A stretch of DNA of 64,000 bases, taken from NCBI GenBank assembly GCA_000002445.1, contig CP000070.1:1088001-1152000 (forward strand), written 5' to 3'. A program made the position numbers and the translations under genes. Positions 448 through 41,528 of the stretch are shown one piece after another. This DNA is from Trypanosoma brucei (taxonomy: Eukaryota). Below the pieces are notes generated by a model. The model searched no databases and was not told the DNA's origin. It was given only the letters and a program-made list of their open reading frames with translations. Every line of letters starts with the position of its first letter. Position 1 is the first letter of the stretch.

Positions 448-3183
448 TTGCACAACCGTGATCACATTCATTTTTGTATGTTTGATAAGGTAACAGCAAT
501 GAGCGAGAGGGAAACAACATCCCATAGCCCCGAGTTGGGCGGCGACAACAATGGTAGCGTCGTCGTAGCTGTTCGCGTGCGACCCCTGGAAGGTTTGAGC
601 ATTGAAGCAGGTGGTGCTTTGAGTATGTCGCGATTTACCGCCCAGCAGCGAATGCATCGTCGGGGAATGTCGGCACAAGAGGGTGATAAACCTGCTGTAC
701 GTGTGGGAGTTGACCGCAAAACAGTTGTTGTGCTTGATCCCGAAAATCTTCAATACATTCGGGAGAGTTTTGTTTTTAACCATGTATTTTCCCCCGTTTT
801 GTTGGATGAATCCCTCATGGGTACGGATGGTGGATCGGTAGGCGATATAGCCCGGCCGTCGGGAGATGTCTATGGGGGAATTTCCAGTAGTGGAGGTTAC
901 AACTCGGGTGTTCTCGGTTGCTGCACGAAGGGGACCAAACTCAGTGCAGAAGACCGAAGGGCTGAATTAGAACAACAGGAAGTATACGAACTGTTAGGAG
1001 CTCCACTAACTGAGCATTTTATGAAAGGGCACAACTCCTGCCTTTTTGCATATGGACAGGAGGGTAGTGGCAAGAGTTACACCCTGTCGGGAACGGCGCG
1101 GTGCGTGGGGGTGATTCCACGTATTTGCAAAGATCTTCTTAGCCGAGCTTCAGCGCCTTGTCGGAGCCCACCATGTGAGGTCCAACGGAAGCAGGAGGCG
1201 GTGAAAAATAATCTCTTGCCACTTCAAGTGAGTCATATGTCGTTTGCTCTCCGTGGTGCGTATACGTCCGCAAAGTCAGGGGGGAACTTTTCTTCGCCCA
1301 TAAAAAATGCCCCCCCAACCGTGCTTCCGCCATCGCTGAGGAACAAACAAAACGCCAGTCGGGTGGAAGTGACGATATCATACATGGAGGTTTGCAACGA
1401 TTGGGTTAGGGATTTGCTTAAACCGAAAAGGGACAGGGACCCAAAATGTGGCGATGCAGACTCGTGCACATACGGCTCGGATGCTTTTGAGAGATTGAAG
1501 GTGCGGTACTACCCAAGACATGGCCCTAGTGTGGAGGGACTAACAACAATTAACGTGCGCACGTGGGAGGAGTGCTGGAGTTATATCCAGTACGGAAACA
1601 TGGAGCGCCAGCAACTGATATCGTTACGTAAAACCCATGGCCACACACACACTATATTCCGAATAACCTCACCAAAGGTTGATCCGTTTGATGAGTGCAT
1701 TACGTCGGTGGAGTGTTCACCAAAGATTGATGTCGTTGAGCTTTCGAGCGTTGGCTGTTTAAAGAACTCTCGTTCTCCACCAAACACAGCAGGTATTACC
1801 ACGTATGAGGATTGTAGAAGACAGTTAAGGGAGTTCAATGCGGTCCAGCGGTCTCTTGGAGTTTTGAGTCGCGTTCTTCAAGCAGTGGCAAGTGGTAGCA
1901 AAAACGCCCCGTACCGTGAGAATCTGTTGACCCATTTGCTCTCTGACGGACTCGTCGGTGGGTCGCTTACCATCTTCTGCGCAACAGTGCTGTCAGACGT
2001 CTGTGCACATGCCGAAACACTAACAACACTTCGTTATGCCGCGCAGACTTGTAGTACCATTTGCTGTATGAAGCCCAATGTGGCCTCGGTCGCAAGTACG
2101 GGCTGTTTGAACCAGAAACAACTGGGAACGACCGTGGAAAGTCTGTCACCGAGGTTTGAAGGTTCCACACCAACAGTACGAAATGATGTAAGGGGAATGA
2201 CCACCTCCGTCTCGTTGCCCTTTTGGTCCGATTGTAGCGGCTCGCGAGCTGGAGCTGTGGGTGCCGCGAGTGACGACGGTTCGCCAAGCAAGAATGGCGC
2301 AAAAGGGGCGTTTTGTGTTGAATGCCTGCCATATATTCCCGGGGCGAAGGTGGAACGAGTTGGCACGGATTCATACGTACCACCAAACAACTGCAGCGGT
2401 GTTACAAATATCACTGCCCTGAACCAAGGCGGGTGTTCAGGGCCGGGTACATTGTTACGAAGGGATCAACAGACTGTCGGACTGCCGCCACTTACCGGGT
2501 CACCGGGGGTTTCTTCCAGCCCGCGTGTTTCCTGGTCCGAAAGGTTGAAGGCAAGCGCTTCGTTTAATAACTTGGGTTGTGGCAATACCTCCAGAGGCGG
2601 GGTGGAGGGTTGGCAGTTGAGGTCCCCTTCCTCTGTTAGCGACAAACCTTCATCCCCTTCTACCAGCGCTTTTAGTTCCCCCAGAAACTTGCTGCGTCCC
2701 AGCAGTTTGGTTCCCAACTCAGGTACTGCCGTGACTGACAGCCCGCTGCAGCCCCACACACCCAATCGTGGAGTGGGAAGGGTTAGTGCCCTGGCTTCCT
2801 CTTTTCTGATATTAACAAGCCCTTCTGCGGTAGCCCCTAGTGGCCGAATTGCAGGGCTAACAGCATTGGGCGGCGCTCACGACGTTATTAGTGCGAGTGG
2901 TGTAACAACAGGCGCGTTCCCGTCAGAGGTCTTGGGAGGAAGTCCCATCCATTCCTGGACCCAGCACGGTTTCCTCGGTTCCCCAGAGTTTGTCCGCAAA
3001 AAGGAAAGCCGAAGGAATCTTGTAAAGGTTTTCACCCCTGAAGAGCTGCAGCCGTCGTTAGCGTCCCCTGAGTCATGCTCTCCAAAGCAAAGCTGCCCAC
3101 CAACACCAATACTTTCCACCAAGAACAATCCTACTCTCAAACCTCTAGCTACTAGTAATCCAGTATCTCCTACAGTGAAGTGA
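448..3183 (+). CDS. Kinesin-like protein with a divergent and possibly catalytically degenerate motor domain. The true start may be the Met at 499.
   Basis: The N-terminus has the VVVAVRVRPL kinesin N-terminal motif. The P-loop reads FAYGQEGSGKSYTLSG where kinesins have GQTGSGKT. The neck-like NAPYRENLLTHLLSDGLVGGSLTIFCATV resembles HIPYRDSKLTRLLQDSLGG. Switch I and II (SSRSH, DLAGSE) are only weakly recognisable as RKTHGHTH and VVELSSVG. The C-terminus is long and S/P-rich. The ORF is 911 aa. Confidence 0.65.
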   Translation: MHNRDHIHFCMFDKVTAMSERETTSHSPELGGDNNGSVVVAVRVRPLEGLSIEAGGALSMSRFTAQQRMHRRGMSAQEGDKPAVRVGVDRKTVVVLDPENLQYIRESFVFNHVFSPVLLDESLMGTDGGSVGDIARPSGDVYGGISSSGGYNSGVLGCCTKGTKLSAEDRRAELEQQEVYELLGAPLTEHFMKGHNSCLFAYGQEGSGKSYTLSGTARCVGVIPRICKDLLSRASAPCRSPPCEVQRKQEAVKNNLLPLQVSHMSFALRGAYTSAKSGGNFSSPIKNAPPTVLPPSLRNKQNASRVEVTISYMEVCNDWVRDLLKPKRDRDPKCGDADSCTYGSDAFERLKVRYYPRHGPSVEGLTTINVRTWEECWSYIQYGNMERQQLISLRKTHGHTHTIFRITSPKVDPFDECITSVECSPKIDVVELSSVGCLKNSRSPPNTAGITTYEDCRRQLREFNAVQRSLGVLSRVLQAVASGSKNAPYRENLLTHLLSDGLVGGSLTIFCATVLSDVCAHAETLTTLRYAAQTCSTICCMKPNVASVASTGCLNQKQLGTTVESLSPRFEGSTPTVRNDVRGMTTSVSLPFWSDCSGSRAGAVGAASDDGSPSKNGAKGAFCVECLPYIPGAKVERVGTDSYVPPNNCSGVTNITALNQGGCSGPGTLLRRDQQTVGLPPLTGSPGVSSSPRVSWSERLKASASFNNLGCGNTSRGGVEGWQLRSPSSVSDKPSSPSTSAFSSPRNLLRPSSLVPNSGTAVTDSPLQPHTPNRGVGRVSALASSFLILTSPSAVAPSGRIAGLTALGGAHDVISASGVTTGAFPSEVLGGSPIHSWTQHGFLGSPEFVRKKESRRNLVKVFTPEELQPSLASPESCSPKQSCPPTPILSTKNNPTLKPLATSNPVSPTVK

Positions 3184-5712: not shown

Positions 5713-7236
5713 ATGGATCTGGATTCTTTCCTCGACAAGAAGAGCAAAAAACTTGCTGGTGGAAAGAAGAAGGCGAAAACAAGCGAACTTTCTGAGAAGG
5801 AGAAGGCGCAGTTGGGAATAGGCGTGTTTCTTGGGCTTGATGTTACCCCTGCAGCGCACGCACAATCGGAAGAAGCGGGTGAAGATGACAAGAGGGAAAG
5901 TAAAAATGGTGTATCAGATCCCGATGGGGTAGCAGCTGTTGAGGCCACTGTGCAGTCAGGGATTCAAACAAACAAGGATCCCGATGTTCCGGCCGTGCGT
6001 AACGCTTGGGTCGATGAAGGGGCTGAAGCTGGTGGTGGTGCTGAGGTGGGAGCTATTCCCGGAAACTTGGCCGTGCCAGTGATTAGAAGCACTGGTAAAA
6101 AAGCTAAGGGTTGGGATTCGGTGAAGGTAACGTCGGGCTCGATAGAGGACCTTCTCGCAAAGGCAACCGAAAGCGGGAAACGACAGAAGTTTGTTGCTCG
6201 CGGCAACGAGGGTGCCACAGGGTCACTTGGTTGTGAGGTGCTTGCTAGTGCAACAAGTTTTCCTTCGCTCGACGAGCTAACAGGAGGGGCAGCTGCCCCT
6301 GCGAAAGAAACTGGCTCAACACCAACTCTTGACACGTGTGGTTCAGTGGAAGATGTGAGCGCTGAAGTGGACAAGGTGACTTCCAGCACGTATAAACCGC
6401 CAGTAGACAAACCGGTTTCTGGTGTTTACAGACCGCCAACAGAGAAACCCACATCTGGAGCGTACAGGCCACCAACCGATAAACCTGCAACTGGCGCATA
6501 TAAGCCCCCAACCGATAAACCCTTCTCAGGAGCATACAGACCACCAGCGGACAAACCGTCTTCGGGAGCCTACAGACCGACTGCAGCGAAACTAGGAGAG
6601 GTGATGGCAGCAACAACAGCACGAGACGAGACTTCTTCCGAAAAACCAGCTGCGGGAGCGTATAGGCCGCCCATTGACAAACCTTCTTCCGGTGCGTATA
6701 AACCGCCGGTGGATAAACCGTCTTCTGGTGCGTACAAACCTCCAACGGACAAATCCTCCCTGGGTGCGTACGAACCTCCCAGTGAAAAACCAGCTTCAGT
6801 GCCGGCCGTACCTGCTGAATCCTCTGCGGTAAAACCGTCCACTGGAGCGTACAGGCCACCGACCGATAAACCACCCACAGGTGTATACAAACCCCCAGTG
6901 GATAAACCGTCCACTGGAGCGTACAGGCCTCCAACAGACAAACCGTCATCGGGGGGAGCTTATGTGCCTCCAAGTGAGAGGCTTGCAACTGCCGCGCCGG
7001 GGGAGCAGCTGTCTGTCGAGAAACCGTCGGCAGGAACGTACAAACCTCCTACTGATAGGGTTTCATCCGGATCATACAAACCACCCACTGACAGGCCATC
7101 AGCAGGGGCATATAAACCCCCAACCGATAAACCCTCCTCGGGAGCATACAGACCACCAACGGACAGACCGTCTTCGGGAGCCTACAGACCACCAGCCGAA
7201 AGAAGTTTCGGCAGCACCTTTAGACCACCAAGCTAA
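5713..7236 (+). CDS. Proline-rich protein built from 12-aa tandem repeats (KPxSGAYRPPTD)
   Basis: The 507-aa ORF has a K/E-rich N-terminus. More than 20 tandem 12-aa units of K-P-x-S/T-G-A-Y-R/K-P-P-T/A-D/E run from about aa 230 to the C-terminus. Antisense ORFs across it are mirror artefacts of the repeats. Confidence 0.6.
   Translation: MDLDSFLDKKSKKLAGGKKKAKTSELSEKEKAQLGIGVFLGLDVTPAAHAQSEEAGEDDKRESKNGVSDPDGVAAVEATVQSGIQTNKDPDVPAVRNAWVDEGAEAGGGAEVGAIPGNLAVPVIRSTGKKAKGWDSVKVTSGSIEDLLAKATESGKRQKFVARGNEGATGSLGCEVLASATSFPSLDELTGGAAAPAKETGSTPTLDTCGSVEDVSAEVDKVTSSTYKPPVDKPVSGVYRPPTEKPTSGAYRPPTDKPATGAYKPPTDKPFSGAYRPPADKPSSGAYRPTAAKLGEVMAATTARDETSSEKPAAGAYRPPIDKPSSGAYKPPVDKPSSGAYKPPTDKSSLGAYEPPSEKPASVPAVPAESSAVKPSTGAYRPPTDKPPTGVYKPPVDKPSTGAYRPPTDKPSSGGAYVPPSERLATAAPGEQLSVEKPSAGTYKPPTDRVSSGSYKPPTDRPSAGAYKPPTDKPSSGAYRPPTDRPSSGAYRPPAERSFGSTFRPPS
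6400..7225 (+). repeat. 36-bp in-frame coding tandem repeats inside the 5713-7236 CDS
   Basis: The unit (aaaccgtcttctggtgcgtacaaacctccaacggac and variants) recurs; the period was read from the translation. Confidence 0.7.
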
Positions 7237-8161: not shown

Positions 8162-11100
8162 ATGGGTAATGAACCCTTCTTGTTGTTTAGGGGTAGCGAG
8201 CTGCTTCCAGGCTTTCCGTCAAGCCGGCCGGAAGGGAATTTGGCTCAACCCGACGAAGGTGACGTGGAGCGTTTGCCGACGCATCTGATTCCCATTGAAC
8301 CTCTCACACACTCCGTGGTGCGAGTCGTCTGCCATTCTTCCACCCGTGCGGGTATGTCAACGCCACTTGCCCAAATGTGCGCACTAACTGATGTCCGTAG
8401 ATTGTTGGAGGAAGAAAGAGATAAATGCGTTGAGACGGCTCGGTCGTGGGAAGGACTGTGCGCACTTCACTCACACTATCCCCACGATCACGCCACAGGC
8501 TGCATGCCAATAGCAAACGAAGAGTTAGACTGTGTGGCGTCCAGCTTATCCCTGGATGAATCTTTTGTCAAGGAAGTTCTTCGGAGCAAACTCTGGAGGG
8601 TGAAAGGCAACGCTGAAAGTGCGGATGGTAAGGTCGAACCTGATTTGAAGCGCCTCAAAATAGTTGTGTCTGATTTGTGCCAGCTTCTGTGGCACCATCG
8701 TGATGGAGAGGGGTCCATAAGCACCGACGGTGTTGCTGTGCCAGACTCGAGTGAGCGCTGTGAAGTCGTTAGACGGGAAAAGAGAAAGGCATCAAAGGTC
8801 GAGGCAAAGAGCGTTTTGTCCATTATCGCAGGACTAACAAAAGACAGTTTGGACGAACTCACAGCCAGCCATGGCAGCGTAGAGCCCCTCCTTGTGGGTT
8901 TAGTCTTTAGTGAGGTGTCGGAGGAAACTTGTAATCATAGCGGAGGAGAGACGGTTGGAACGCTCGTGGGGGATGATTTGCTGAGGCTGTTCGACAAAAA
9001 GGTTGAGGCCACTGTGGAAAACAAGGATGGTTACGGTGATACAGTTGATTTTTCTGCCCGGGTACTGCTCCTTAACGCTGTTATGGAGAGGAAGAACATG
9101 AAAAACATGGCCCATGCCTCTCCAATGTGGTCAGCGCTCCTGTCGGTGGTAAACTTTGTGTATGTCACTGGTGATCCTGCAACTGTCCGTTACGTCGCTC
9201 AACTGATCAACCATGTGCAATGTTTGACACAACAGGTCACTGCGGAGCCCGCACCTAGACCGCATTCAAAGGTGGACATCTCTCTTTTTTACACTCCTCT
9301 GATGGGTGTTGAGAACGAGGAGGGTCTTTACCCAAGTGGTGCACGCTGTGTTTCCAACCTAAAGACCGCGTTGTCGGAAGCAGTCGTTGGCGTGGCGAAT
9401 AAAAAAAGATGGAAACCGGAAGCTTTTTCCCCTGGCGGTTCGGGAGGATTTCAGGATTTGTTGCAATGGTCACTTATGCTGGAGCACGTGTGGCACCACT
9501 GCGGCAGCGCCCCCTGTCACAAGGTTTCTCGGGGGATAGAGCAATGGATTGGCATGGCTGTTGAGACGGCTGCCGATATCTTCGCGTCTACTGCGGAGGC
9601 TTTGCTGCTTTCCATGTATGTTATGGAGCCACTTCCTCCTGTATGCCTGCCTGTAGCGGACAACACAGAAACTGCTGTCAAATCGGTTGCTGGTTCACCG
9701 GGTTTCAGTGTGGGTGATGTTCTTCTTTCTGCGCATCGTGTATCGTTGTTGGTCTTTGGAGCTGTTGTAGGTCCATGTGCTTCTGACAACCCTCTGCTTC
9801 GGCGGGAGGCACTGGAGGACCTTTACGGGGCTCACCTGAAAGCATCTGAGGCAGTAAGGGGACGACTAGAACGGTTTTGCGCGCGGCAGGCCGAGCGCAC
9901 TGTGGATGCTTCGCCGGCACTAAAAAATCTGGAAAAATATCAAAGTCAGTGGAGTAAGACAGTCGAGCTTGAGCAGGGTAAAAAGGGGGATTCCCTCGCA
10001 CGCATTTTATACGTGTGCATGGAAGGAATGCATCATATTTTAAGTACACCACTTATTAAACATTGTGACGTTCCATATGATCTTGGCGAAAACGCCATAG
10101 CAGGCGTTGATGGTTGGCGTTGCAGTGGCGCTACCACCTCGTGCGTGGGAAGGACGACTACCAATTGTGGATACGGCGCAAAGGTGAACCAGAGGTGCCA
10201 GGTGACCGAAAGTCCAATTACTTCATCATGGGCTTCGGCTGCAAAATCTTCTGCGATTTGCAACTTCACAATGCAACGCCTCCTGCCGATGTTGCTACAC
10301 TCATTAGGGCAGCAACCGGTGGTTTTGAATGGGAACTCTATCGTTAATGTTGGAACGCGCAGGGCCGTGCAGTCTTGGGAAGATCAGCGGATGCAACTGG
10401 AGGGACGGTGTAGGGCGGCTGAGGCGATGATTGAGCACCAACGGTGCGTGATAGGCGAGATTAGAAATCAAAGAAGTGCACTTGGGAATCGACTACGTGA
10501 GGCACAACGGTGCATGAGAAAACTGGTTATGATGTGTGTGGGGTATGAAGAAGGACACGCGAGCTACGCCCAGAAGTTAGCTTTTCGACTGAAATATAGC
10601 TTGGAGGAAGATATCACTAGTATTTTCGTTCCCATTGAGGTAAAGCCGGTTGCGGGATCGGATGCTTGGGACGGCGGGGAAACTTCTCAACAGTCATCTC
10701 CGTCGCCGTTGGTGTGCGGTGAAGCTTCAATGGTAGCACCCTTAGCGGGCCGGGACGATCTGCGCAGGTTAATGTTCCGCGATGCGCAAATGCAACTCGA
10801 CGCTTGCCACAATGTCGTGCGGTGCGTTTGTCAAGAAGCTCGGGAAAACCTCAATACACTTTCAGCTGCCATGATGGAGTGCAGTATAAGTTACGGAAAT
10901 GTCTCCCCCAACGAGTCGTTGCGCGCAATGTTTTCCACTTCACTTTACGGAACGAGGACGAATGAACCCAGCGGTGGTTACATGCCCCCTACTGGTGATC
11001 AAGAATGTGACTGTGACGGCAGTAACCAAGGTGATATGTACCAAAAAGATGATTCAAAGCACACATATCCCTCTACAATCATCAAAGTACCCCTGGGGTT

Positions 11101-14100
11101 AAGTACTCACAATAATAATCACAAAAATTTCGAAGGCAAAAATCAACCCCGTGGGCGGGCTCTCGAAATTTCCTCCAATGAGTCGCGTCCACTGTCTCAC
11201 ACAGGAAAAACAACTTGGGGCTCGAGAGACGAACAAATTTATCAGCACGAAAAGCAACAAACACTTAACACATCTACAAAGCGCCGATACGTCTCAACAC
11301 CGTCAGCTTCGCGGTGTTCATCAAGAGACATAGTAGCAGTCATCCAATCACCAAAACCAAGCAAGGCGGCCATCGACGCCATTGCACATCTCCAAAAGAA
11401 ACATGCCGAAGGAAAATCTCATCACCAACATTTAAAAAAGCAATACGAAGATACGTGTCTGTCTTTGGTGAAAACAGCAGCGGAATTTCAAGAGAACATA
11501 GCAAGACAAAAGATAGAACAGACCTGCTGGTCTGAACAGAACAAAATACTATTAGCGTTCATCAATACAACCGTGAGGGAGACACAGATATCGATGATGA
11601 AACAAAAAATCGAAAAGGAACGCACATTGACGGAGGAGGATTCCCGAAAATTAGCTACTGACCGTCGGGTGCTTGACTTATCTAAGGTGTATTTTGACTC
11701 ACTGAACGAGGTACGTGAATCCATGGCGGAACACTATGGTACTCTCATGTGTGAATGCAAAACAGTACTGAGTAATGCGAATGCTACAAGCTATGAAGCT
11801 CATCAGCAGTTGGCGGAGGAGATTCGTGCTCGTGAATTAGCTACTGACCGTCGGGTGCTTGACTTATCTAAGGTGTATTTTGACTCACTGAACGAGGTAC
11901 GTGAATCCATGGCGGAACACTATGGTACTCTCATGTGTGAATGCAAAACAGTACTGAGTAATGCGAATGCTACAAGCTATGAAGCTCATCAGCAGTTGGC
12001 GGAGGAGACTCGTGCTCGTGAATTAGCTACTGACCGTCGGGTGCTTGACTTATCTAAGGTGTATTTTGAGTCACTGAACGAGGTACGTGAATCCATGGCG
12101 GAACACTATGGTACTCTCATGTGTGAATGCAAAACAGTACTGAGTAATGCGAATGCTACAAGCTATGAGGCTCATCAGCAGTTGGCGGAGGAGACTCGTG
12201 CTCGTGAATTAGCTACTGACCGTCGGGTGCTTGACTTATCTAAGGTGTATTTTGACTCACTGAACGAGGTACGTGAGTCCATGGCGGAACACTATGATAC
12301 TCTCATGTGTGAATGCAAAACAGTATTGAGTAATGCGAATGCTACAAGCTATGAAGCTCATCAGCAGTTGGCGGAGGAGATTCGTGCTCGTGAATTAGCT
12401 ACTGACCGTCGGGTGCTTGACTTATCTAAGGTGTATTTTGACTCACTGAACGAGGTACGTGAATCCATGGCGGAACACTATGATACTCTCATGTGTGAAT
12501 GCAAAACAGTATTGAGTAATGCGAATGCTACAAGCTATGAGGCTCATCAGCAGTTGGCGGAGGAGACTCGTGCTCGTGAATTAGCTACTGACCGTCGGGT
12601 GCTTGACTTATCTAAGGTGTATTTTGACTCACTGAACGAGGTACGTGAGTCCATGGCGGAACACTATGATACTCTCATGTGTGAATGCAAAACAGTACTG
12701 AGTAATGCGAATGCTACAAGCTATGAAGCTCATCAGCAGTTGGCGGAGGAGACTCGTGCTCGTGAATTAGCTACTGACCGTCAGGTGCTTGACTTATCTA
12801 AGGTGTATTTTGACTCACTGAACGAGGTACGTGAATCCATGGCGGAACACTATGATACTCTCATGTGTGAATGCAAAACAGTATTGAGTAATGCGAATGC
12901 TACAAGCTATGAAGCTCATCAGCAGTTGGCGGAGGAGACTCGTGCTCGTGAATTAGCTACTGACCGTCGGGTGCTTGACTTATCTAAGGTGTATTTTGAC
13001 TCACTGAACGAGGTACGTGAATCCATGGCGGAACACTATGATACTCTCATGTGTGAATGCAAAACAGTATTGAGTAATGCGAATGCTACAAGCTATGAAG
13101 CTCATCAGCAGTTGGCGGAGGAGATTCGTGCTCGTGAATTAGCTACTGACCGTCGGGTGCTTGACTTATCTAAGGTGTATTTTGACTCACTGAACGAGGT
13201 ACGTGAATCCATGGCGGAACACTATGATACTCTCATGTGTGAATGCAAAACAGTATTGAGTAATGCGAATGCTACAAGCTATGAAGCTCATCAGCAGTTG
13301 GCGGAGGAGATTCGTGCTCGTGAATTAGCTACTGACCGTCGGGTGCTTGACTTATCTAAGGTGTATTTTGACTCACTGAACGAGGTACGTGAATCCATGG
13401 CGGAACACTATGGTACTCTCATGTGTGAATGCAAAACAGTACTGAGTAATGCGAATGCTACAAGCTATGAGGCTCATCAGCAGTTGGCGGAGGAGACTCG
13501 TGCTCGTGAATTAGCTACTGACCGTCGGGTGCTTGACTTATCTAAGGTGTATTTTGACTCACTGAACGAGGTACGTGAGTCCATGGCGGAACACTATGAT
13601 ACTCTCATGTGTGAATGCAAAACAGTACTGAGTAATGCGAATGCTACAAGCTATGAAGCTCATCAGCAGTTGGCGGAGGAGATTCGTGCTCGTGAATTAG
13701 CTACTGACCGTCGGGTGCTTGACTTATCTAAGGTGTATTTTGAGTCACTGAACGAGGTACGTGAATCCATGGCGGAACACTATGATACTCTCATGTGTGA
13801 ATGCAAAACAGTACTGAGTAATGCGAATGCTACAAGCTATGAAGCTCATCAGCAGTTGGCGGAGGAGATTCGTGCTCGTGAATTAGCTACTGACCGTCGG
13901 GTGCTTGACTTATCTAAGGTGTATTTTGACTCACTGAACGAGGTACGTGAATCCATGGCGGAACACTATGATACTCTCATGTGTGAATGCAAAACAGTAC
14001 TGAGTAATGCGAATGCTACAAGCTATGAAGCTCATCAGCAGTTGGCGGAGGAGATTCGTGCTCGTGAATTAGCTACTGACCGTCGGGTGCTTGACTTATC

Positions 14101-15388
14101 TAAGGTGTATTTTGAGTCACTGAACGAGGTACGTGAATCCATGGCGGAACACTATGGTACTCTCATGTGTGAATGCAAAACAGTATTGAGTAATGCGAAT
14201 GCTACAAGCTATGAAGCTCATCAGCAGTTGGCGGAGGAGACTCGTGCTCGTGAATTAGCTACTGACCGTCGGGTGCTTGACTTATCTAAGGTGTATTTTG
14301 AGTCACTGAACGAGGTACGTGAATCCATGGCGGAACACTATGATACTCTCATGTGTGAATGCAAAACAGTATTGAGTAATGCGAATGCTACAAGCTATGA
14401 AGCTCATCAGCAGTTGGCGGAGGAGACTCGTGCTCGTGAATTAGCTACTGACCGTCAGGTGCTTGACTTATCTAAGGTGTATTTTGAGTCACTGAACGAG
14501 GTACGTGAATCCATGGCGGAACACTATGGTACTCTCATGTGTGAATGCAAAACAGTACTGAGTAATGCGAATGCTACAAGCTATGAGGCTCATCAGCAGT
14601 TGGCGGAGGAGACTCGTGCTCGTGAATTAGCTACTGACCGTCGGGTGCTTGACTTATCTAAGGTGTATTTTGATTGTGCTGGGGTGCTATGTGACGCTGT
14701 TTTCAAAAAATGTATTTTTTTTGGTGGTGTAGTGTTTGATATTTGTCGTGATTGTTTGGTTCCTATGTCTATTTGTTCTTCCGTGTCGCTGGGCGGTGTT
14801 TATGCTTTGGGTGGCATTGATGGACTTGTGTACGAAATGGAATTGAGGAAACGGCGCATTGCAGAGTTGGAAGAATGTGTTCGGCAGAAGCACATTGTTA
14901 TCACATCACTAAAAGAGAGTATTGCCAACTTGTATGGCCTTTTGGAGGCACAGCGAGATCTTGGCATGGTCGCTCCACCTCCACCACCGTTAGTGTCGCG
15001 CGAGTTTGGTGTGCTGAACTCGAGTGCGAAAGAAGCCGTGGCATATGTGAACAGTGATGCATCTTTTTCTAGTACTTTTTTTGCATCACCATCTCGTGTT
15101 CTATCCCCTGGTGTTAATGACGGGGTGAAGTTGAAAGTGTGTCCCAGATCATTTGCTGATGAGGCTGTGTTATCAGCGGAGACAGTTGGGGGCGCTTTTA
15201 CTTCATCAAATGATCATCATGTTGCCGTTGGTGGGGTAGTTGGACACGAAGCTAATCGTACCGACCAAATTACGGATGAAGGTGAACGGTTGCAGGGCTG
15301 GAGCCTTCCTATTGATCGTAAGGAGATGCGACCAGTAAGTTGGTATTTGCAGTCTATCGCTGCCATTGAGAGTACGCTCAAGAAGTAG
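8162..15388 (+). CDS. Giant (2408 aa) protein with a unique N-terminal region, about 16 near-identical 62-aa tandem repeats and a unique C-terminal domain
   Basis: A single uninterrupted ORF. The repeat unit is ELATDRRVLDLSKVYFDSLNEVRESMAEHYGTLMCECKTVLSNANATSYEAHQQLAEEIRAR, with alternating charged and hydrophobic residues (helical or coiled-coil-like). No family is recognised. Confidence 0.7.
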   Translation: MGNEPFLLFRGSELLPGFPSSRPEGNLAQPDEGDVERLPTHLIPIEPLTHSVVRVVCHSSTRAGMSTPLAQMCALTDVRRLLEEERDKCVETARSWEGLCALHSHYPHDHATGCMPIANEELDCVASSLSLDESFVKEVLRSKLWRVKGNAESADGKVEPDLKRLKIVVSDLCQLLWHHRDGEGSISTDGVAVPDSSERCEVVRREKRKASKVEAKSVLSIIAGLTKDSLDELTASHGSVEPLLVGLVFSEVSEETCNHSGGETVGTLVGDDLLRLFDKKVEATVENKDGYGDTVDFSARVLLLNAVMERKNMKNMAHASPMWSALLSVVNFVYVTGDPATVRYVAQLINHVQCLTQQVTAEPAPRPHSKVDISLFYTPLMGVENEEGLYPSGARCVSNLKTALSEAVVGVANKKRWKPEAFSPGGSGGFQDLLQWSLMLEHVWHHCGSAPCHKVSRGIEQWIGMAVETAADIFASTAEALLLSMYVMEPLPPVCLPVADNTETAVKSVAGSPGFSVGDVLLSAHRVSLLVFGAVVGPCASDNPLLRREALEDLYGAHLKASEAVRGRLERFCARQAERTVDASPALKNLEKYQSQWSKTVELEQGKKGDSLARILYVCMEGMHHILSTPLIKHCDVPYDLGENAIAGVDGWRCSGATTSCVGRTTTNCGYGAKVNQRCQVTESPITSSWASAAKSSAICNFTMQRLLPMLLHSLGQQPVVLNGNSIVNVGTRRAVQSWEDQRMQLEGRCRAAEAMIEHQRCVIGEIRNQRSALGNRLREAQRCMRKLVMMCVGYEEGHASYAQKLAFRLKYSLEEDITSIFVPIEVKPVAGSDAWDGGETSQQSSPSPLVCGEASMVAPLAGRDDLRRLMFRDAQMQLDACHNVVRCVCQEARENLNTLSAAMMECSISYGNVSPNESLRAMFSTSLYGTRTNEPSGGYMPPTGDQECDCDGSNQGDMYQKDDSKHTYPSTIIKVPLGLSTHNNNHKNFEGKNQPRGRALEISSNESRPLSHTGKTTWGSRDEQIYQHEKQQTLNTSTKRRYVSTPSASRCSSRDIVAVIQSPKPSKAAIDAIAHLQKKHAEGKSHHQHLKKQYEDTCLSLVKTAAEFQENIARQKIEQTCWSEQNKILLAFINTTVRETQISMMKQKIEKERTLTEEDSRKLATDRRVLDLSKVYFDSLNEVRESMAEHYGTLMCECKTVLSNANATSYEAHQQLAEEIRARELATDRRVLDLSKVYFDSLNEVRESMAEHYGTLMCECKTVLSNANATSYEAHQQLAEETRARELATDRRVLDLSKVYFESLNEVRESMAEHYGTLMCECKTVLSNANATSYEAHQQLAEETRARELATDRRVLDLSKVYFDSLNEVRESMAEHYDTLMCECKTVLSNANATSYEAHQQLAEEIRARELATDRRVLDLSKVYFDSLNEVRESMAEHYDTLMCECKTVLSNANATSYEAHQQLAEETRARELATDRRVLDLSKVYFDSLNEVRESMAEHYDTLMCECKTVLSNANATSYEAHQQLAEETRARELATDRQVLDLSKVYFDSLNEVRESMAEHYDTLMCECKTVLSNANATSYEAHQQLAEETRARELATDRRVLDLSKVYFDSLNEVRESMAEHYDTLMCECKTVLSNANATSYEAHQQLAEEIRARELATDRRVLDLSKVYFDSLNEVRESMAEHYDTLMCECKTVLSNANATSYEAHQQLAEEIRARELATDRRVLDLSKVYFDSLNEVRESMAEHYGTLMCECKTVLSNANATSYEAHQQLAEETRARELATDRRVLDLSKVYFDSLNEVRESMAEHYDTLMCECKTVLSNANATSYEAHQQLAEEIRARELATDRRVLDLSKVYFESLNEVRESMAEHYDTLMCECKTVLSNANATSYEAHQQLAEEIRARELATDRRVLDLSKVYFDSLNEVRESMAEHYDTLMCECKTVLSNANATSYEAHQQLAEEIRARELATDRRVLDLSKVYFESLNEVRESMAEHYGTLMCECKTVLSNANATSYEAHQQLAEETRARELATDRRVLDLSKVYFESLNEVRESMAEHYDTLMCECKTVLSNANATSYEAHQQLAEETRARELATDRQVLDLSKVYFESLNEVRESMAEHYGTLMCECKTVLSNANATSYEAHQQLAEETRARELATDRRVLDLSKVYFDCAGVLCDAVFKKCIFFGGVVFDICRDCLVPMSICSSVSLGGVYALGGIDGLVYEMELRKRRIAELEECVRQKHIVITSLKESIANLYGLLEAQRDLGMVAPPPPPLVSREFGVLNSSAKEAVAYVNSDASFSSTFFASPSRVLSPGVNDGVKLKVCPRSFADEAVLSAETVGGAFTSSNDHHVAVGGVVGHEANRTDQITDEGERLQGWSLPIDRKEMRPVSWYLQSIAAIESTLKK
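11640..14680 (+). repeat. 186-bp tandem coding repeat array of about 16.2 copies
   Basis: The period was measured directly: ttagctactgaccgtcgggtg occurs at 11651 and 11837, and the final partial copy ends near 14672. About 7 nucleotide sites vary among copies, giving G/D, D/E, I/T and R/Q codon variants plus synonymous changes. Confidence 0.9.
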
Positions 15389-15800: not shown

Positions 15801-16367
15801 ATGCCCTCACTAGCGAACGGGTTGCGTTGCCCGGATGCGCTCATCACCCGGACGTTGAATCCGCTACTCAATGGACCGAAGTTTGCGGTAATATACTGTG
15901 GAAATCACCAGTACAAAGTTGCGGTAGGCGATGTCATTGCGGTTCAGCGGCTTCGGGTCGAAATAGGAAGTCATATTGCTCTTAAAAAGGTGCTGATGGT
16001 AGGTGGCCCGCGCTTCACGGCTATCGGCCGTCCTCTTCTTGAAGGTGTACGGGTAACCGCACAGGTGGAGGAGCAAAAGCGGATGCGCAATGTGGTTTCG
16101 TTATTTGCCACGCCAGGTAGGCGACATGTGCGGTGGGTGGATGCACCTCATGCTGCAACAGTTATTCGCATTTGTGAAATATTTTACTCTCCCAATGTGG
16201 TTGGTGAGTTGGATAAGTACAAGGGCGAGTTGTTGGAAACGTTTACACCAGGTCAGCACACGAACCCAGTGTACCCCGTTGATGATGGCTATGACGTGTT
16301 TAGGAAGAAAGATAAGGAGGCCATGGAGAATGCCACCACCTTTCTCGACCTTTTGGGTGGTGTGTGA
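15801..16367 (+). CDS. Mitochondrial ribosomal protein L21 (bL21 family)
   Basis: FAVIYCGNHQYKVAVGDVIAVQRLRVEIGSHIALKKVLMVGG...LEGVRVTAQVEEQKRMRNVVSLF...TVIRICEI matches the bacterial-type L21 pattern YAVIExGGKQYKVxxGDxIxVEKL...EVGxxIxLDKVLLVG...GxPxVEGAKVTAxV. The N-terminus (MPSLANGLRCPDALITRT) looks like a mitochondrial presequence. Confidence 0.7.
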   Translation: MPSLANGLRCPDALITRTLNPLLNGPKFAVIYCGNHQYKVAVGDVIAVQRLRVEIGSHIALKKVLMVGGPRFTAIGRPLLEGVRVTAQVEEQKRMRNVVSLFATPGRRHVRWVDAPHAATVIRICEIFYSPNVVGELDKYKGELLETFTPGQHTNPVYPVDDGYDVFRKKDKEAMENATTFLDLLGGV

Positions 16368-20532: not shown

Positions 20533-21481
20533 GGAGGTGGTGAGCGATGTTGAATCGAGGGTTATCAAGTAGAAAAAGGGTAACAACAACGAGGTGTGGT
20601 GTGCCCACGTGCACGGGAGTGCTGGAAGAAGTAGTCTGTCCCCCAACGGGTAAAACAGCCTCTTCCCTGGCTTTTACTGGATTCGTTTCCCTTCCTTCCA
20701 ATGCGTATGCATTGGTACGCAAAATTTAAAGGGTGGAGGAGGGGAGGGGAAATATGTACTTGATTTTTTAGGGCACCGCCTGGACAAGAAGGCACGCGGT
20801 TGGGGGTAAAGCATTCGCGTAATTAAGTGCTTTGCGTTTCTTGTTTGTATGATGGCTTGATTTCTGCAGTGTGTCGCACCCCTCCCTTTTCACCATATTC
20901 CAATGAAAAAATGGGGTGCGAGTTTTGTGATGAATCTCGTGTACGACCGTATAAGTATAAGTTTCCTTCCACATGCTTTATCTGCACACAATACTGAGTT
21001 TGTTGTTTATGTTCTTAAAGTACGTTCATTCTTTTGCTTGTACAGGTAATCACATCATGTCTGTTACCTCTGCTTGTGCACTTACTTTCGATAACTCCAC
21101 GCTCGGTTTCAGTATTGAATGATGTTTTTTCCTTCTTTTTTTCCCCCTTCTCTCGCTATTTCGTGTCAATGTTACCTATCTCGCTAGGCTCTTTAACCGA
21201 GACGCGTCACCGGCTCATTTTCGCAGCAGACAAAAAATTTGTTGACGAACCCTAGCGGAGGAGGGTGAAGATCAGCTCACAAAAGAAAACAAAGGAAGAG
21301 TAAGTAGCAACAAAGGAGAAAGGCGGGTGCAGGGAGGTAAAAAAACTGAAACCGTCCAATAAAGACAAATAAATTTTAAGGAAGCATACAGGCAACAACA
21401 TACATTCTCCCCTAAGAAAAATTTAGGTTTTTTTTGTTGTTTTTTATTTTTTTCCTTCTATTGTTAAGTGATTTGCCGAAG

Positions 21482-22387
21482 ATGTTGATGAACTTCGGGG
21501 GCTCCTACGATGCCTACATAAATAACTTCCAAGGTACCTTTCTTGCGGAGTGGATGTTGGATCATCCATCGGTTCCTTACATCGCAGGCGTCATGTATCT
21601 CATTCTTGTACTCTACGTACCGAAAAGCATTATGGCGAGTCAACCGCCCCTCAATCTTAGGGCCGCCAACATCGTGTGGAATCTGTTTCTGACATTATTT
21701 TCAATGTGCGGCGCGTATTACACCGTTCCGTACCTCGTGAAAGCGTTCATGAATCCTGAAATTGTCATGGCAGCCTCGGGGATAAAATTAGACGCAAACA
21801 CCTCACCAATAATCACACATAGTGGTTTCTATACCACCACGTGCGCTTTGGCTGATAGCTTTTACTTCAACGGTGATGTGGGTTTCTGGGTTGCACTTTT
21901 TGCCCTGTCAAAGATCCCTGAAATGATTGACACGGCCTTTCTTGTCTTCCAAAAGAAGCCGGTTATTTTTCTACACTGGTACCATCACCTCACTGTGATG
22001 CTTTTCTGTTGGTTTGCCTACGTGCAGAAAATTTCCAGCGGTCTGTGGTTTGCCTCCATGAACTATTCTGTCCACTCCATCATGTACTTGTACTACTTTG
22101 TATGTGCCTGCGGTCACCGTCGCCTCGTCCGTCCATTCGCTCCGATAATTACATTTGTGCAAATATTTCAGATGGTGGTGGGTACGATTGTTGTGTGTTA
22201 CACGTACACTGTAAAGCATGTGTTGGGAAGGAGCTGCACAGTAACAGACTTCTCTCTTCATACTGGTTTGGTAATGTATGTGAGTTACCTGCTTCTTTTT
22301 TCGCAGCTCTTCTACCGCAGCTATCTCAGTCCGAGGGATAAGGCCAGTATTCCACACGTAGCAGCGGAAATAAAGAAAAAAGAGTAA
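21482..22387 (+). CDS. ELO: Fatty-acid elongase (ELO/ELOVL family), first of three tandem paralogues
   Basis: The HxxHH histidine box FLHWYHHLTVMLF is present. There are multiple transmembrane helices. The conserved N-terminal WMLDHP motif precedes the first TM, and the C-terminus ends in a dilysine (KKKE). The ORF-track start at 21434 adds a Leu/Phe-rich leader, so the start is probably the Met at 21482. Confidence 0.85.
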   Translation: MLMNFGGSYDAYINNFQGTFLAEWMLDHPSVPYIAGVMYLILVLYVPKSIMASQPPLNLRAANIVWNLFLTLFSMCGAYYTVPYLVKAFMNPEIVMAASGIKLDANTSPIITHSGFYTTTCALADSFYFNGDVGFWVALFALSKIPEMIDTAFLVFQKKPVIFLHWYHHLTVMLFCWFAYVQKISSGLWFASMNYSVHSIMYLYYFVCACGHRRLVRPFAPIITFVQIFQMVVGTIVVCYTYTVKHVLGRSCTVTDFSLHTGLVMYVSYLLLFSQLFYRSYLSPRDKASIPHVAAEIKKKE

Positions 22388-23706: not shown

Positions 23707-24522
23707 ATGTTTCCATACGTCACAGACTATAGCGGTTTTGCTATCAGGAAATGGATGATTGATAATGTGGATGTTGCCGGCTTCCTTTGCCTCTTGTATC
23801 TTGGGCTTGTGTGGAAGGGACCAGGCGTCGTGAAGAGCCTCAGAGAAAAGAATTTAATCAATGCAACACTTCTTCAGGGCGTTTTTATTATGTGGAATCT
23901 CTTTTTGTCCACCTTTTCCGTCATCGGAATGATCGTCGTTGTTCCCGCCGCTATTGCACACATCAGCAACAAGGGACTTGTTCCCGCTCTTTGCGAGAGG
24001 GATGTAAACATGATTTACGACTCTCCCGTCGGTTTCTGGGTTGGTGTGTTTGCGTTGTCAAAAATACCGGAATTGTTTGACACGGTTCTTCTTGTTTTGC
24101 AGGGGAAACAACCTCCGTTCCTTCATTGGTATCACCACACCACCGTGTTAATCTTCTCTTGGCAAAGCTACTGCGAGGGAAGTAGTACCATATTTGTCTT
24201 TGTTGCCATGAACCTGACGGTACATGCCGTCATGTACTTTTACTTCGCCATGTGTGCCAGTGGATTCAAGGCGATTATGCGAACCATTGCTCCGGTTATT
24301 ACAATTATGCAAATTTTGCAGATGATAGTTGGCAGCGCTGTAACAATGTACTCCGCATATGTACTTTACAATCCTCAACCTGATGGGCCACAGACTTGCG
24401 ATGTGACAAAAGCAAGCGCTCGGATGGGAGTGGTGATGTATTTGAGTTATTTGTACCTCTTCGCTGCGCTGTTTGTTGAGTCATACCTGAAACCAAAAAA
24501 GAGGACCGAAAAGTCGAAATGA
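23707..24522 (+). CDS. ELO: Fatty-acid elongase (ELO family), second tandem paralogue
   Basis: FLHWYHHTTVLIF histidine box. The shared N-terminal motif is WMIDNVDV. The protein is polytopic and ends in a K-rich C-terminus (KPKKRTEKSK). Confidence 0.85.
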   Translation: MFPYVTDYSGFAIRKWMIDNVDVAGFLCLLYLGLVWKGPGVVKSLREKNLINATLLQGVFIMWNLFLSTFSVIGMIVVVPAAIAHISNKGLVPALCERDVNMIYDSPVGFWVGVFALSKIPELFDTVLLVLQGKQPPFLHWYHHTTVLIFSWQSYCEGSSTIFVFVAMNLTVHAVMYFYFAMCASGFKAIMRTIAPVITIMQILQMIVGSAVTMYSAYVLYNPQPDGPQTCDVTKASARMGVVMYLSYLYLFAALFVESYLKPKKRTEKSK

Positions 24523-41515: not shown

Positions 41516-41528
41516 AGGCTGGCATTAA
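40387..41528 (+). mobile_element. Left-arm mirror copy of the 5' part of a degenerate retroelement (frameshifted ORF1-like region plus a basic K/R-rich ORF), truncated at the arm/spacer junction
   Basis: Three overlapping + ORFs in different frames (40387-40593, 40442-40672, 40584-40796) look like one frameshifted coiled-coil ORF. They are followed by 41079-41528, which encodes the basic protein MKQFQQPSASNKPKRAKE.... On the other arm this ORF reads on into the spacer, where RT motifs follow. Confidence 0.45.

What the first reader, a model, noticed from the sequence alone, without database searches (positions are those of the whole stretch)
11640..14680. About 16 near-identical 186-bp in-frame repeats inside a 7.2-kb gene, with only a handful of variable sites recombined combinatorially
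The 62-aa unit is repeated head-to-tail with identity above 96%. The same small set of variant codons (GGT/GAT, GAC/GAG, ATT/ACT, CGG/CAG, plus synonymous CTG/TTG, GAA/GAG and GAA/GAG) appears in different combinations in different copies. That is the footprint of ongoing unequal crossing-over or gene conversion (concerted evolution). The unit has heptad-like spacing of hydrophobic residues and a CECK motif. The copy number in this assembly is likely to be an underestimate or strain-variable. No known repeat-protein family (MARP, FAZ1, GM6) matches by eye.
Basis: seen in the sequence. Interest (0 to 1): 0.5.

Follow-up and report, generated by a model that had tools for sequence, protein, structure and literature searches.

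The report
Expanded helical repeat in trypanosome protein
A large uncharacterised Trypanosoma brucei gene (most likely Tb927.7.4130) carries 16 almost identical 62-amino-acid helical repeats whose number changes between strains (14, 16, 45), an ordinary pattern for big T. brucei structural proteins, and its function is still unknown.

Summary
A 186-bp unit is repeated 16.3 times in frame (11649-14673, 98% matches, no indels) inside a 7227-nt ORF (8162-15388, 2408 aa).

The window is T. brucei brucei TREU927 chromosome 7. The gene is XP_846036/Q57UP3, "hypothetical protein, conserved", and by gene order it is Tb927.7.4130.

The same array has 14 units in T. b. gambiense DAL972 and 45 in the PacBio assembly of T. 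equiperdum IVM-t1. Strain-specific variants have spread over many units, and multi-unit blocks are duplicated. This supports concerted evolution and a variable, or in older assemblies collapsed, copy number.

Syntenic orthologues exist only in Trypanosoma (T. cruzi, T. grayi, T. vivax). They keep the N-terminal ~900 aa and the C-terminal ~190 aa but have no array.

My best reading is a lineage-specific expansion of an alpha-helical spacer between two conserved ends, as in p197 and NUP-1. That function is inferred, not shown.

One caveat: in TREU927 the seven sites look completely unlinked, unlike in the long-read array, so the "combinatorial" pattern may partly come from assembly.

It is a new member of a known kind, of modest interest.

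The parts
8162..15388 (+). Whole gene: XP_846036.1 / Q57UP3, 'hypothetical protein, conserved', 2408 aa; by gene order Tb927.7.4130
   Evidence: ORF. Exact-sequence look-up (T. b. brucei TREU927, contig of 2,205,233 bp). The ID is inferred: TrypTag primers for Tb927.7.4170 and Tb927.7.4180 map to 24440-24519 and 27533-27612, the kinesin Tb927.7.4110 is ORF 448-3183, and exactly five ORFs lie between them.
8267..10876 (+). Conserved N-terminal region (aa ~36-905), ending in a predicted long helix (aa 730-812) and a second helix (aa 862-904)
   Evidence: phmmer against 1.84 billion representatives finds only T. grayi (2.3e-69), T. cruzi (1.1e-55) and T. vivax (1.8e-41), aligned over aa 36-914. 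There is no Pfam or PDB match. The AF2 model is unusable (pLDDT 35).
10877..11416 (+). Poorly conserved S/T/N/Q-rich linker (aa ~906-1085)
   Evidence: Translation; low conservation and many gaps in alignment A1.
11417..11650 (+). Unique helical segment leading into the array (aa ~1086-1163)
   Evidence: Translation. Modelled as helix in AF2 for aa 1106-1153 (model residues 5-52, low confidence; the model starts at aa 1102). Aligns to the start of the helical central region of the orthologues.
11651..14626 (+). 16 full 186-bp / 62-aa units in frame, with 7 biallelic variable sites
14627..14674 (+). First 16 codons of a 17th unit (LATDRRVLDLSKVYFD), then divergence
   Evidence: The same boundary, with GAC (D), is found in all three strains.
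14675..14821 (+). Cys/Gly/Val-rich hydrophobic stretch specific to T. brucei (CAGVLCDAVFKKCIFFGGVVFDICRDC...). MAFFT aligns it to the second copy of an ancestral duplicated motif.
   Evidence: Borderline Kyte-Doolittle hydrophobicity of 1.61. Alignment A1. The homology is not statistically established.
14822..15385 (+). Conserved C-terminal region: a helix (ELRKRRIAELEE...), the PPPPPLVSREFGVL motif, and the terminal WYLQSIAAIESTL motif
   Evidence: BLASTP gives 38-39% identity over ~188 aa to T. grayi (5e-27) and T. cruzi (4e-30); invariant columns.

Best explanation
Shown: this is the protein-coding gene XP_846036/Q57UP3 of T. brucei TREU927 chromosome 7, most likely Tb927.7.4130. It is a Trypanosoma-specific protein. 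A conserved N-terminal region of ~900 aa and a conserved C-terminal region of ~190 aa flank a central region that reads as helical from its sequence and from low-confidence models. In the T. brucei group, a 62-aa segment of that central region has been amplified head to tail into a near-identical array. Because 186 bp is exactly 62 codons, any shift in register during unequal sister-chromatid or allelic exchange, or during gene conversion, keeps the reading frame. The array therefore expands, contracts and homogenises freely: 14, 16 and 45 units in three assemblies, lineage-specific variants present in many units, duplicated multi-unit blocks, and no conserved unit order.

Inferred (about 45-50% likely): the array works as an extended alpha-helical spacer or rod. 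Its length, roughly 9 nm per unit if fully helical, sets the distance between whatever the conserved N- and C-terminal ends bind. This is what has been demonstrated for p197 of the tripartite attachment complex and proposed for the lamina protein NUP-1. Where the protein sits in the cell and what it binds are unknown.

The confidence given (0.7) is for the shown part.
For: Identity and coding status:
- Exact match to XP_846036.1.
- The ORF is intact over 7.2 kb here, 6.9 kb in DAL972 and 12.4 kb in IVM-t1.
- Syntenic orthologue in T. cruzi, with the gene order 537-aa protein, this gene, bL21m..., 1270-aa protein, ELO.
- Orthologues occur only in Trypanosoma.

Conserved ends:
-.

The array is specific to the T. 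brucei group:
- T. cruzi, T. grayi and T. vivax proteins contain no 8-mer that occurs twice, against 94 such 8-mers in T. brucei.

Turnover of the array:
- Copy numbers 14/16/45 and allele counts per strain.
- Strings of unit types, and the 'DGIAB' block duplicated ten units apart.
- The short-read assembly of T. equiperdum OVI breaks at the array and leaves a 207-aa C-terminal fragment.

Helical character:
- Hydrophobic periodicity of 3.65 residues.
- The AF2 secondary structure shows 55-58-residue helices, with a short break every 62 residues at the unit junction (low confidence).

Precedent:
- p197 has conserved ends and ~26 near-identical 175-aa helical repeats found only in T. brucei. The reference annotation (TriTrypDB) lists only 3.5 of these repeats, against ~26 in a newer T. 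b. brucei genome. Its T. cruzi orthologue lacks repeats, and its length sets the distance between the basal body and the mitochondrial outer membrane (PMC9546609).

Possible origin of the unit:
- T. grayi and T. cruzi carry a significant two-copy duplication about 103 aa apart at the equivalent position (z = 11.7 and 7.6).
- MAFFT places the T. brucei unit on copy 1 and the partial 17th unit on copy 2.
- hhalign aligns 31 ungapped columns with P = 0.008.
Against: - No localisation, expression or phenotype data could be found. The ID appears in no main text of the paper library, and it is missing from the stored, partly truncated supplements of TrypTag and four proteomic studies.
- Both AF2 models are of low confidence (pLDDT 49 and 35), so the rod geometry is not established.
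- Foldseek gave nothing significant.
- The period is 3.65 rather than 3.5, and 62 is not a multiple of 7, so a canonical two-stranded coiled coil is not demonstrated.
- Homology between the unit and the ancestral motif is weak: Smith-Waterman z <= 1.6 and no HMM hit.
- T. equiperdum IVM-t1 carries a TCA>TAA nonsense codon that removes the last 61 aa. The C-terminal end may therefore be dispensable, at least in that tsetse-independent strain, or this may be a sequencing error.
Confidence: 0.7

Rival explanations
1. The details of the TREU927 array (exactly 16 units, and nearly every unit a unique combination of seven variants) are partly an assembly product. Sanger shotgun reads from a longer array, and/or from two allelic arrays, were collapsed, and majority-rule consensus calling produced chimeric unit haplotypes. 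The repeat itself is real. The copy number and the 'combinatorial' pattern are not reliable.
For: - In TREU927 the seven sites behave as if unlinked: 15 haplotypes against 14.0 +/- 1.1, and 15 incompatible pairs against 15.7 +/- 1.8 after shuffling columns.
- In the PacBio array the variants are strongly linked: 12 haplotypes against 22.2 +/- 1.4, and 7 incompatible pairs against 15.9 +/- 1.6.
- Both Sanger-era assemblies give about 15 units (~3 kb), while the only long-read assembly gives 45.
- The short-read OVI assembly breaks at the array.
- The p197 array is under-represented in the reference annotation, 3.5 repeats against ~26 in a newer T. b. brucei genome, and the p197 authors note that such repeats often cause assembly errors (PMC9546609).
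Against: - A 186-bp unit fits inside a single Sanger read, so unit haplotypes could have been read directly.
- TREU927 has its own private variants (columns 16, 47, 88, 117) at intermediate frequencies, so its array is truly different.
- The strains could really differ threefold in length.
- No reads were available to test any of this.
Confidence: 0.4
2. Each 62-aa unit is a binding module rather than a passive spacer. The array would then be a multivalent ruler that lies along a periodic partner, such as a microtubule lattice or other cytoskeletal filament, in the way MARP or nebulin-type repeats do.
For:
- The unit has a strictly conserved Cys-x-Cys motif and an acidic net charge (7 K+R against 12 D+E).
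- All amino-acid variants are conservative surface-type changes.
Against: - A fully helical 62-aa unit would be about 9.2 nm long, which does not match the 8-nm tubulin dimer repeat (arithmetic from standard helix geometry).
- The orthologues do without any array, so a periodic partner is not an ancestral requirement.
- A threefold difference in copy number between close relatives argues against a length-matched partner.
- No binding data exist.
Confidence: 0.15
3. The expansion is a selectively neutral by-product of T. brucei's tolerance for perfect repeats and its efficient homologous recombination. The array adds helical length with no function of its own, and may incidentally act as an immunodominant tandem-repeat antigen.
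For: - Copy numbers range widely, 14-45.
- The orthologues function without the array.
- The NUP-1 authors explicitly note T. brucei's tolerance of perfect repeats (PMC3313915).
- The p197 central region only needs to be helical and long enough (PMC9546609).
- One strain has a premature stop.
Against: - The frame is intact over as many as 45 units, and none of the 75 units examined has a nonsense or frameshift change.
- Amino-acid variants are few and conservative.
- Neutrality cannot be separated from a 'minimum length' requirement using sequence alone.
Confidence: 0.2

Closest known systems
p197 (Tb927.10.15750), exclusion-zone filament protein of the T. brucei tripartite attachment complex
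   Same: Both have conserved N- and C-terminal ends flanking a central alpha-helical region made of near-identical in-frame repeats. In both, the repeats occur only in T. brucei, while orthologues such as the T. cruzi one keep a non-repetitive helical centre. For p197 the reference annotation under-represents the repeat number (3.5 listed against ~26 in a newer genome) (PMC9546609). Here the two Sanger-era assemblies give 14-16 units and the long-read assembly gives 45.
   Different: No sequence relationship was found or tested. The unit is 62 aa rather than 175 aa. p197's termini have known partners (TAC65 and the basal body) and a measured spacer function, whereas nothing is known here about localisation, partners or essentiality. 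The N-terminal zinc-finger region of p197 was not looked for here.
NUP-1, coiled-coil lamina protein of trypanosomes
   Same: NUP-1 is a large, mostly helical protein with 17 near-perfect 144-aa repeats flanked by unique ends. Repeat number and sequence differ between species but are nearly identical within one protein (PMC3313915). That is the same signature of concerted evolution.
   Different: NUP-1 orthologues in other trypanosomatids also have repeats, whereas here only the T. brucei group does. NUP-1 extends to Leishmania, while this protein was detected only in Trypanosoma. There is no evidence of nuclear localisation here.
   Same: They share the general pattern of high-identity tandem repeats inside large T. 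brucei structural proteins.
   Different: No Pfam FAZ1_cons domain, or any other domain, is present in this protein. The sequences of MARP and GM6 were not available to compare directly. The 62-aa unit has no significant match in the PDB.

Membership tests
Architectural class: T. brucei repeat-expanded helical spacer proteins (p197 / NUP-1 type); a shared design, not a homologous family | Conserved unique N- and C-terminal regions flanking the repeat array | tested here: met
   N-terminal aa 36-914 is conserved with T. grayi, T. cruzi and T. vivax. The C-terminal ~188 aa is 38-39% identical, E = 5e-27 and 4e-30. Alignment A1.
Architectural class: T. brucei repeat-expanded helical spacer proteins (p197 / NUP-1 type); a shared design, not a homologous family | Near-identical, in-frame, head-to-tail repeats | tested here: met
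   16.3 copies of 186 bp, 98% matches, no indels.
Architectural class: T. brucei repeat-expanded helical spacer proteins (p197 / NUP-1 type); a shared design, not a homologous family | Repeat region predominantly alpha-helical | tested here: inconclusive
   Hydrophobic periodicity is 3.65. AF2 secondary structure is almost all helix, with a break every 62 residues, but pLDDT is only 49. No dedicated coiled-coil predictor was available.
Architectural class: T. brucei repeat-expanded helical spacer proteins (p197 / NUP-1 type); a shared design, not a homologous family | Orthologues outside the T. brucei group lack the array but keep a central region (p197-like) | tested here: met
   No repeated 8-mers in the T. 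grayi, T. cruzi or T. vivax orthologues. Synteny with T. cruzi confirmed. The central regions align as gapped blocks whose sequences look helical.
Architectural class: T. brucei repeat-expanded helical spacer proteins (p197 / NUP-1 type); a shared design, not a homologous family | The two ends attach to different structures, and the distance between them scales with repeat length | not testable with these tools
   This needs double tagging with expansion microscopy and length variants, as was done for p197 (PMC9546609).
Concerted evolution of a tandem array | Copy number differs between close relatives | tested here: met
   14 (DAL972), 16 (TREU927) and 45 (IVM-t1) units. Caveat: the assemblies used different sequencing technologies.
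Concerted evolution of a tandem array | Lineage-specific variants present in many units, with no positional orthology of units | tested here: met
   Allele counts per strain. Strings of unit types share types but not order, and a block is duplicated at lag 10.
Pfam DUF5748 / XPG_I / DUF948 (whole-protein hits) | At least one stretch that scores significantly on its own | tested here: not met
   The whole-protein E-values of 1e-15 to 1e-9 come with 0 significant stretches. A single unit gives no hit to any of the three, and two units give at most 18.4 bits, against cut-offs of 25-37. The scores are weak matches summed over 16 identical units.
FAZ1 family | FAZ1 conserved domain (PF23398) | tested here: not met
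   No hit in the full protein or in its N- or C-terminal parts.
Canonical heptad coiled coil | 3.5-residue hydrophobic periodicity with a continuous a/d register | tested here: inconclusive
   The strongest harmonic is 62/17 = 3.65. Core spacing is 3-4-4-3-4-3, with stutters. The 62-aa unit is not a multiple of 7.

The most novel reading that the evidence does not exclude
The array is a genetically tunable molecular ruler. Recombination-driven changes in unit number (14 to 45, or about 130 to 420 nm of helix if fully extended) would alter the spacing of a so far unidentified trypanosome-specific cellular structure between strains. If the seven TREU927 sites really are unlinked, the array also undergoes exchanges with breakpoints only 20-30 bp apart.
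Probability: 0.15. Interest if true: 0.55.

Novelty: new member of a known kind. Interest (0 to 1): 0.3.

Why it matters
If the spacer reading is right, this adds a third case, after p197 and NUP-1, of T. brucei building a long structural element by amplifying a helical segment that its relatives have in non-repeated form. It would also be a natural length series (14, 16 and 45 units) for testing how rod length relates to cell architecture.

Practically, it flags a gene whose reference model (2408 aa) is probably too short or strain-specific. That affects proteomic mass assignments, the design of RNAi and tagging constructs, and the use of the unit as a typing or serological marker.

It does not open a long-standing question, and a specialist would not be surprised by it.

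Tried and rejected
1. Pfam hits. The whole protein hits DUF5748, XPG_I and DUF948. I rejected these as additive artefacts of 16 identical weak matches.

2. The search for homologous proteins. All three runs were uninformative: one found nothing, one found only the query's own cluster, and one found a T. equiperdum OVI fragment. The exhaustive phmmer search was what found the orthologues. Its fourth hit (P0024, a repetitive metagenomic protein, 2.4e-11 spread over 10 short stretches) was dismissed as a low-complexity or repeat match.

3. PDB sequence searches with the unit, the N-terminus and the orthologue profile gave nothing.

4. Structure prediction. AF2 on one pre-unit segment plus four units gave pLDDT 49, and on the N-terminal 905 aa with an 8-sequence alignment gave pLDDT 35. 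Neither tertiary structure is usable. Foldseek with the repeat model gave only generic long-helix matches with E >= 0.09. No fold search was run on the N-terminal model.

5. Literature. No paper text mentions Tb927.7.4130, its neighbour Tb927.7.4120, its inferred old ID or its accessions. The stored TrypTag supplements (the main localisation table among them was cut when stored) and four proteome or phosphoproteome supplements do not contain it. The UniProt label 'C2H2-type domain-containing protein' on the T. cruzi orthologue was not pursued, because Pfam finds no zinc finger in it.

6. Homology of the unit to the two-copy motif in the orthologues. A motif HMM found nothing, and Smith-Waterman against shuffles gave z <= 1.6. 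Only hhalign (P = 0.008) and the MAFFT placement point that way, so I keep it as a lead and not a result. The T. vivax within-species duplication test is invalid because the two segments overlapped.

7. A transmembrane reading of the hydrophobic stretch after the array was rejected. Its hydrophobicity is borderline (1.61) and the stretch is not conserved in the orthologues.
Full report
**1. The observation**

Tandem Repeats Finder reports a single strong array in the window, at 11649-14673. Its period is 186 bp, with 16.3 copies, 98% matches, no indels and a score of 5812. The array lies inside the ORF 8162-15388 on the + strand, which is 7227 nt and 2408 aa.

Read in codon phase, there are 16 complete 62-aa units (11651-14626). 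They are followed by the first 16 codons of a 17th unit (14627-14674), after which the sequence diverges abruptly. Upstream of 11649 there is no similarity to the unit.

Only 7 of the 186 columns vary, and all are biallelic. Four change the amino acid (R/Q6, D/E16, G/D30, I/T58) and three are synonymous. Pairwise identity ranges from 96.2% to 100%, with a mean of 98.4%. There are 15 distinct unit sequences among the 16, and 15 of 21 site pairs show all four allele combinations (Hudson-Kaplan Rm = 4).

**2. What the locus is**

An exact-sequence look-up identifies the product as XP_846036.1 / AAZ12477.1 / UniProt Q57UP3, 'hypothetical protein, conserved', of Trypanosoma brucei brucei TREU927, on a contig of 2,205,233 bp, which is chromosome 7.

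The neighbouring genes fit this placement:
- a kinesin at 448-3183;
- mitochondrial ribosomal protein bL21m at 15801-16367;
- three tandem fatty-acid elongase (ELO) genes at 21434, 23707 and 26698.

The TrypTag tagging primers for Tb927.7.4170 and Tb927.7.4180 (PMC9981465 supplement) map to 24440-24519 and 27533-27612. Tb927.7.4110 is annotated as a kinesin (PMC7952579). Exactly five ORFs lie between them, so the gene is Tb927.7.4130. This assignment rests on gene order, not on a direct look-up.

**3. Relatives**

An exhaustive phmmer search with aa 1-1163 against 1.84 billion representative proteins found only three true relatives, all from Trypanosoma: T. grayi (1675 aa, 2.3e-69), T. cruzi (1646 aa, 1.1e-55) and T. 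vivax (1.8e-41; a full-length version has 1596 aa). Nothing was found in Leishmania or beyond at E <= 0.001.

The T. cruzi gene is syntenic. Its order is a 537-aa protein, the orthologue, bL21m, a Ras-like gene, a 1270-aa protein and ELO.

Conservation is concentrated in two places. One is the N-terminal ~900 aa. The other is the last ~190 aa, which is 38-39% identical (E = 5e-27 and 4e-30). It contains a helix, a PPPPPL(V/I)S(R/Q)EFGVL motif and a terminal WYLQS..AIES.L motif.

None of the orthologues has the array. They contain no 8-mer that occurs twice, against 94 such 8-mers in T. brucei. Their central ~450 aa is a non-repetitive sequence that looks helical.

T. grayi and T. cruzi do carry an old, diverged two-copy duplication about 103 aa apart (z = 11.7 and 7.6 against shuffles). 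It lies at the position where MAFFT places the T. brucei unit (on copy 1) and the partial 17th unit (on copy 2). hhalign aligns 31 ungapped columns with P = 0.008. However, Smith-Waterman against shuffles (z <= 1.6) and a motif HMM do not support homology. Descent of the unit from that motif is therefore a lead, not a result.

**4. Array dynamics**

The same gene has 14 units in T. b. gambiense DAL972 (2284 aa) and 45 units in the PacBio assembly of T. equiperdum IVM-t1 (4145 aa). The short-read assembly of T. equiperdum OVI breaks at the array, leaving a 207-aa C-terminal fragment.

The variants fall into three groups:
- Columns 68, 146 and 172 are polymorphic in all three arrays.
- Columns 104 and 109 vary only in gambiense and equiperdum, where the minority or alternative base is in 24/45 and 11/14 units (104) and 16/45 and 1/14 units (109). 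Neither varies in TREU927 (0/16).
- Columns 16, 47, 88 and 117 vary only in TREU927. For example, GAC at codon 16 is in 11/16 TREU927 units and 0/59 elsewhere.

Unit types are shared between gambiense and equiperdum, but their order is not. The equiperdum array contains a five-unit block duplicated ten units apart. Diversity within an array (0.8-1.6%) is about the same as divergence between strains in the unique 5' part (35-37 differences in 3489 nt between TREU927 and the other two).

Together these are the expected marks of unequal exchange and gene conversion within an array whose 62-codon unit keeps every register in frame.

**5. A caveat on the 'combinatorial' pattern**

Shuffling alleles within columns, which imitates complete linkage equilibrium, gives 14.0 +/- 1.1 haplotypes and 15.7 +/- 1.8 incompatible pairs for TREU927. 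The observed values are 15 and 15. The seven sites, 20-31 bp apart, therefore behave as if fully unlinked.

In the long-read equiperdum array the variants are strongly linked: 12 haplotypes against 22.2 +/- 1.4 expected, and 7 incompatible pairs against 15.9 +/- 1.6.

There are two possible explanations. TREU927 may have undergone many very short exchanges. Alternatively, the Sanger-era consensus of a near-identical, possibly longer and heterozygous array may be partly chimeric. There is a precedent for the second: the reference annotation lists 3.5 p197 repeats where a newer T. b. brucei genome indicates about 26, and the p197 authors note that such repeats often cause assembly errors (PMC9546609). 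I put the chance that the TREU927 count or haplotypes are materially wrong at about 40%.

**6. What the protein is like**

No Pfam family is truly matched. The whole-protein hits to DUF5748, XPG_I and DUF948 have no stretch that is significant on its own, and they fall below every cut-off when one or two units are scanned. The orthologues and the unique parts have no hits either. There is no PDB relative by sequence or by profile.

The unit is acidic (12 D+E against 7 K+R). Its hydrophobic residues recur with a dominant period of 3.65, that of an amphipathic helix, and not a clean 3.5 heptad.

A single-sequence AF2 model gives helices of 55-58 residues, broken for 4-6 residues every 62 residues at the unit junction (...ARE|LATD...). 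Its pLDDT is only 49, and Foldseek finds only generic long-helix proteins. The N-terminal model, built with an 8-sequence alignment, failed (pLDDT 35). There is no convincing transmembrane segment.

**7. Most likely mechanism**

The architecture is conserved ends flanking a helical centre, with near-perfect repeats only in the T. brucei group and a non-repetitive centre in the orthologues. It matches p197, whose repeat region was shown to be a flexible helical spacer that sets the distance between the basal body and the mitochondrial outer membrane (PMC9546609). It also matches NUP-1 (PMC3313915).

I therefore favour an extended spacer or rod between two anchoring ends, at roughly 45-50%. At ~0.15 nm per residue, 16 units would add about 150 nm and 45 units about 420 nm, if the array is fully extended. 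This is inference by analogy. No data on localisation, partners, expression or phenotype could be retrieved.

The rival readings are:
- an assembly-inflated pattern, which is not exclusive of the spacer model;
- periodic binding modules;
- a neutral expansion, possibly with incidental antigenicity.

**8. Verdict**

It is a further example of a well-known habit of T. brucei rather than something new in kind. The gene is already annotated, as a hypothetical protein. Interest is modest (0.3). The useful new points are:
- the 14/16/45 copy series;
- the restriction of the array to the T. brucei group, within a Trypanosoma-specific protein;
- the warning about the reference model.

**9. Noticed in passing**

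A 3.6-kb perfect palindrome sits at the convergent strand-switch region (37880-41515 / 42482-46117). Its two arms are 100% identical within TREU927 and also within DAL972, yet they differ by about 1.2% between the two genomes. That indicates gene conversion between the arms, and it may deserve its own follow-up.

Noticed in passing
window 37880-41515 and 42482-46117 (spacer 41516-42481): A perfect (100% complementary) 3636-nt inverted repeat with a 966-nt spacer sits exactly at the convergent strand-switch between the + and - gene blocks. Each arm carries a 112-aa UBA_HYPK-domain gene (38788-39126 + and 44871-45209 -). T. b. gambiense DAL972 has the same palindrome, also with 100% identical arms. 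Between the two genomes, however, the arms differ by 45 substitutions and 13 gap columns (~1.2%). This implies ongoing gene conversion between the arms.
   Followed up: partly
L001 15436-15438 (T. equiperdum IVM-t1), equivalent to window 15203-15205: The IVM-t1 copy of this gene has a TCA>TAA nonsense change that removes the last 61 aa, including the conserved WYLQSIAAIESTL end. The OVI strain fragment (P0043) keeps the full C-terminus. This is either real decay in a tsetse-independent strain or a sequencing error.
   Followed up: partly
window 5713-7236 (+), Tb927.7.4120 by gene order: The upstream 507-aa hypothetical protein contains more than 20 degenerate 12-aa repeats of the type GAYKPPTDKPSS (TRF period 36, 72-76% matches). 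This old, diverged array contrasts with the homogenised array next door. There is no Pfam hit. T. cruzi has a 537-aa gene at the same position.
   Followed up: no
window 21434-22387, 23707-24522, 26698-27615 (+): Three tandem ELO (GNS1/SUR4) fatty-acid elongase genes. The second and third are Tb927.7.4170 and Tb927.7.4180, confirmed by TrypTag primer matches. This is the known ELO cluster of T. brucei chromosome 7.
   Followed up: yes
window 47900-48613 (-): A 237-aa ORF with a weak hit just above the cut-off to the Pfam FAZ1 conserved domain (E = 1.4e-7, 31.7 bits against a cut-off of 27.5), plus a sub-threshold Tweety match.
   Followed up: no
L001 3001-15438 (T. equiperdum IVM-t1 array): Higher-order structure inside the 45-unit array: the five-unit block of types D-G-I-A-B occurs twice, ten units apart (units 23-27 and 33-37). 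Identical units are most frequent at lag 10 (8 of 35). This points to a recent multi-unit duplication by unequal exchange.
   Followed up: partly
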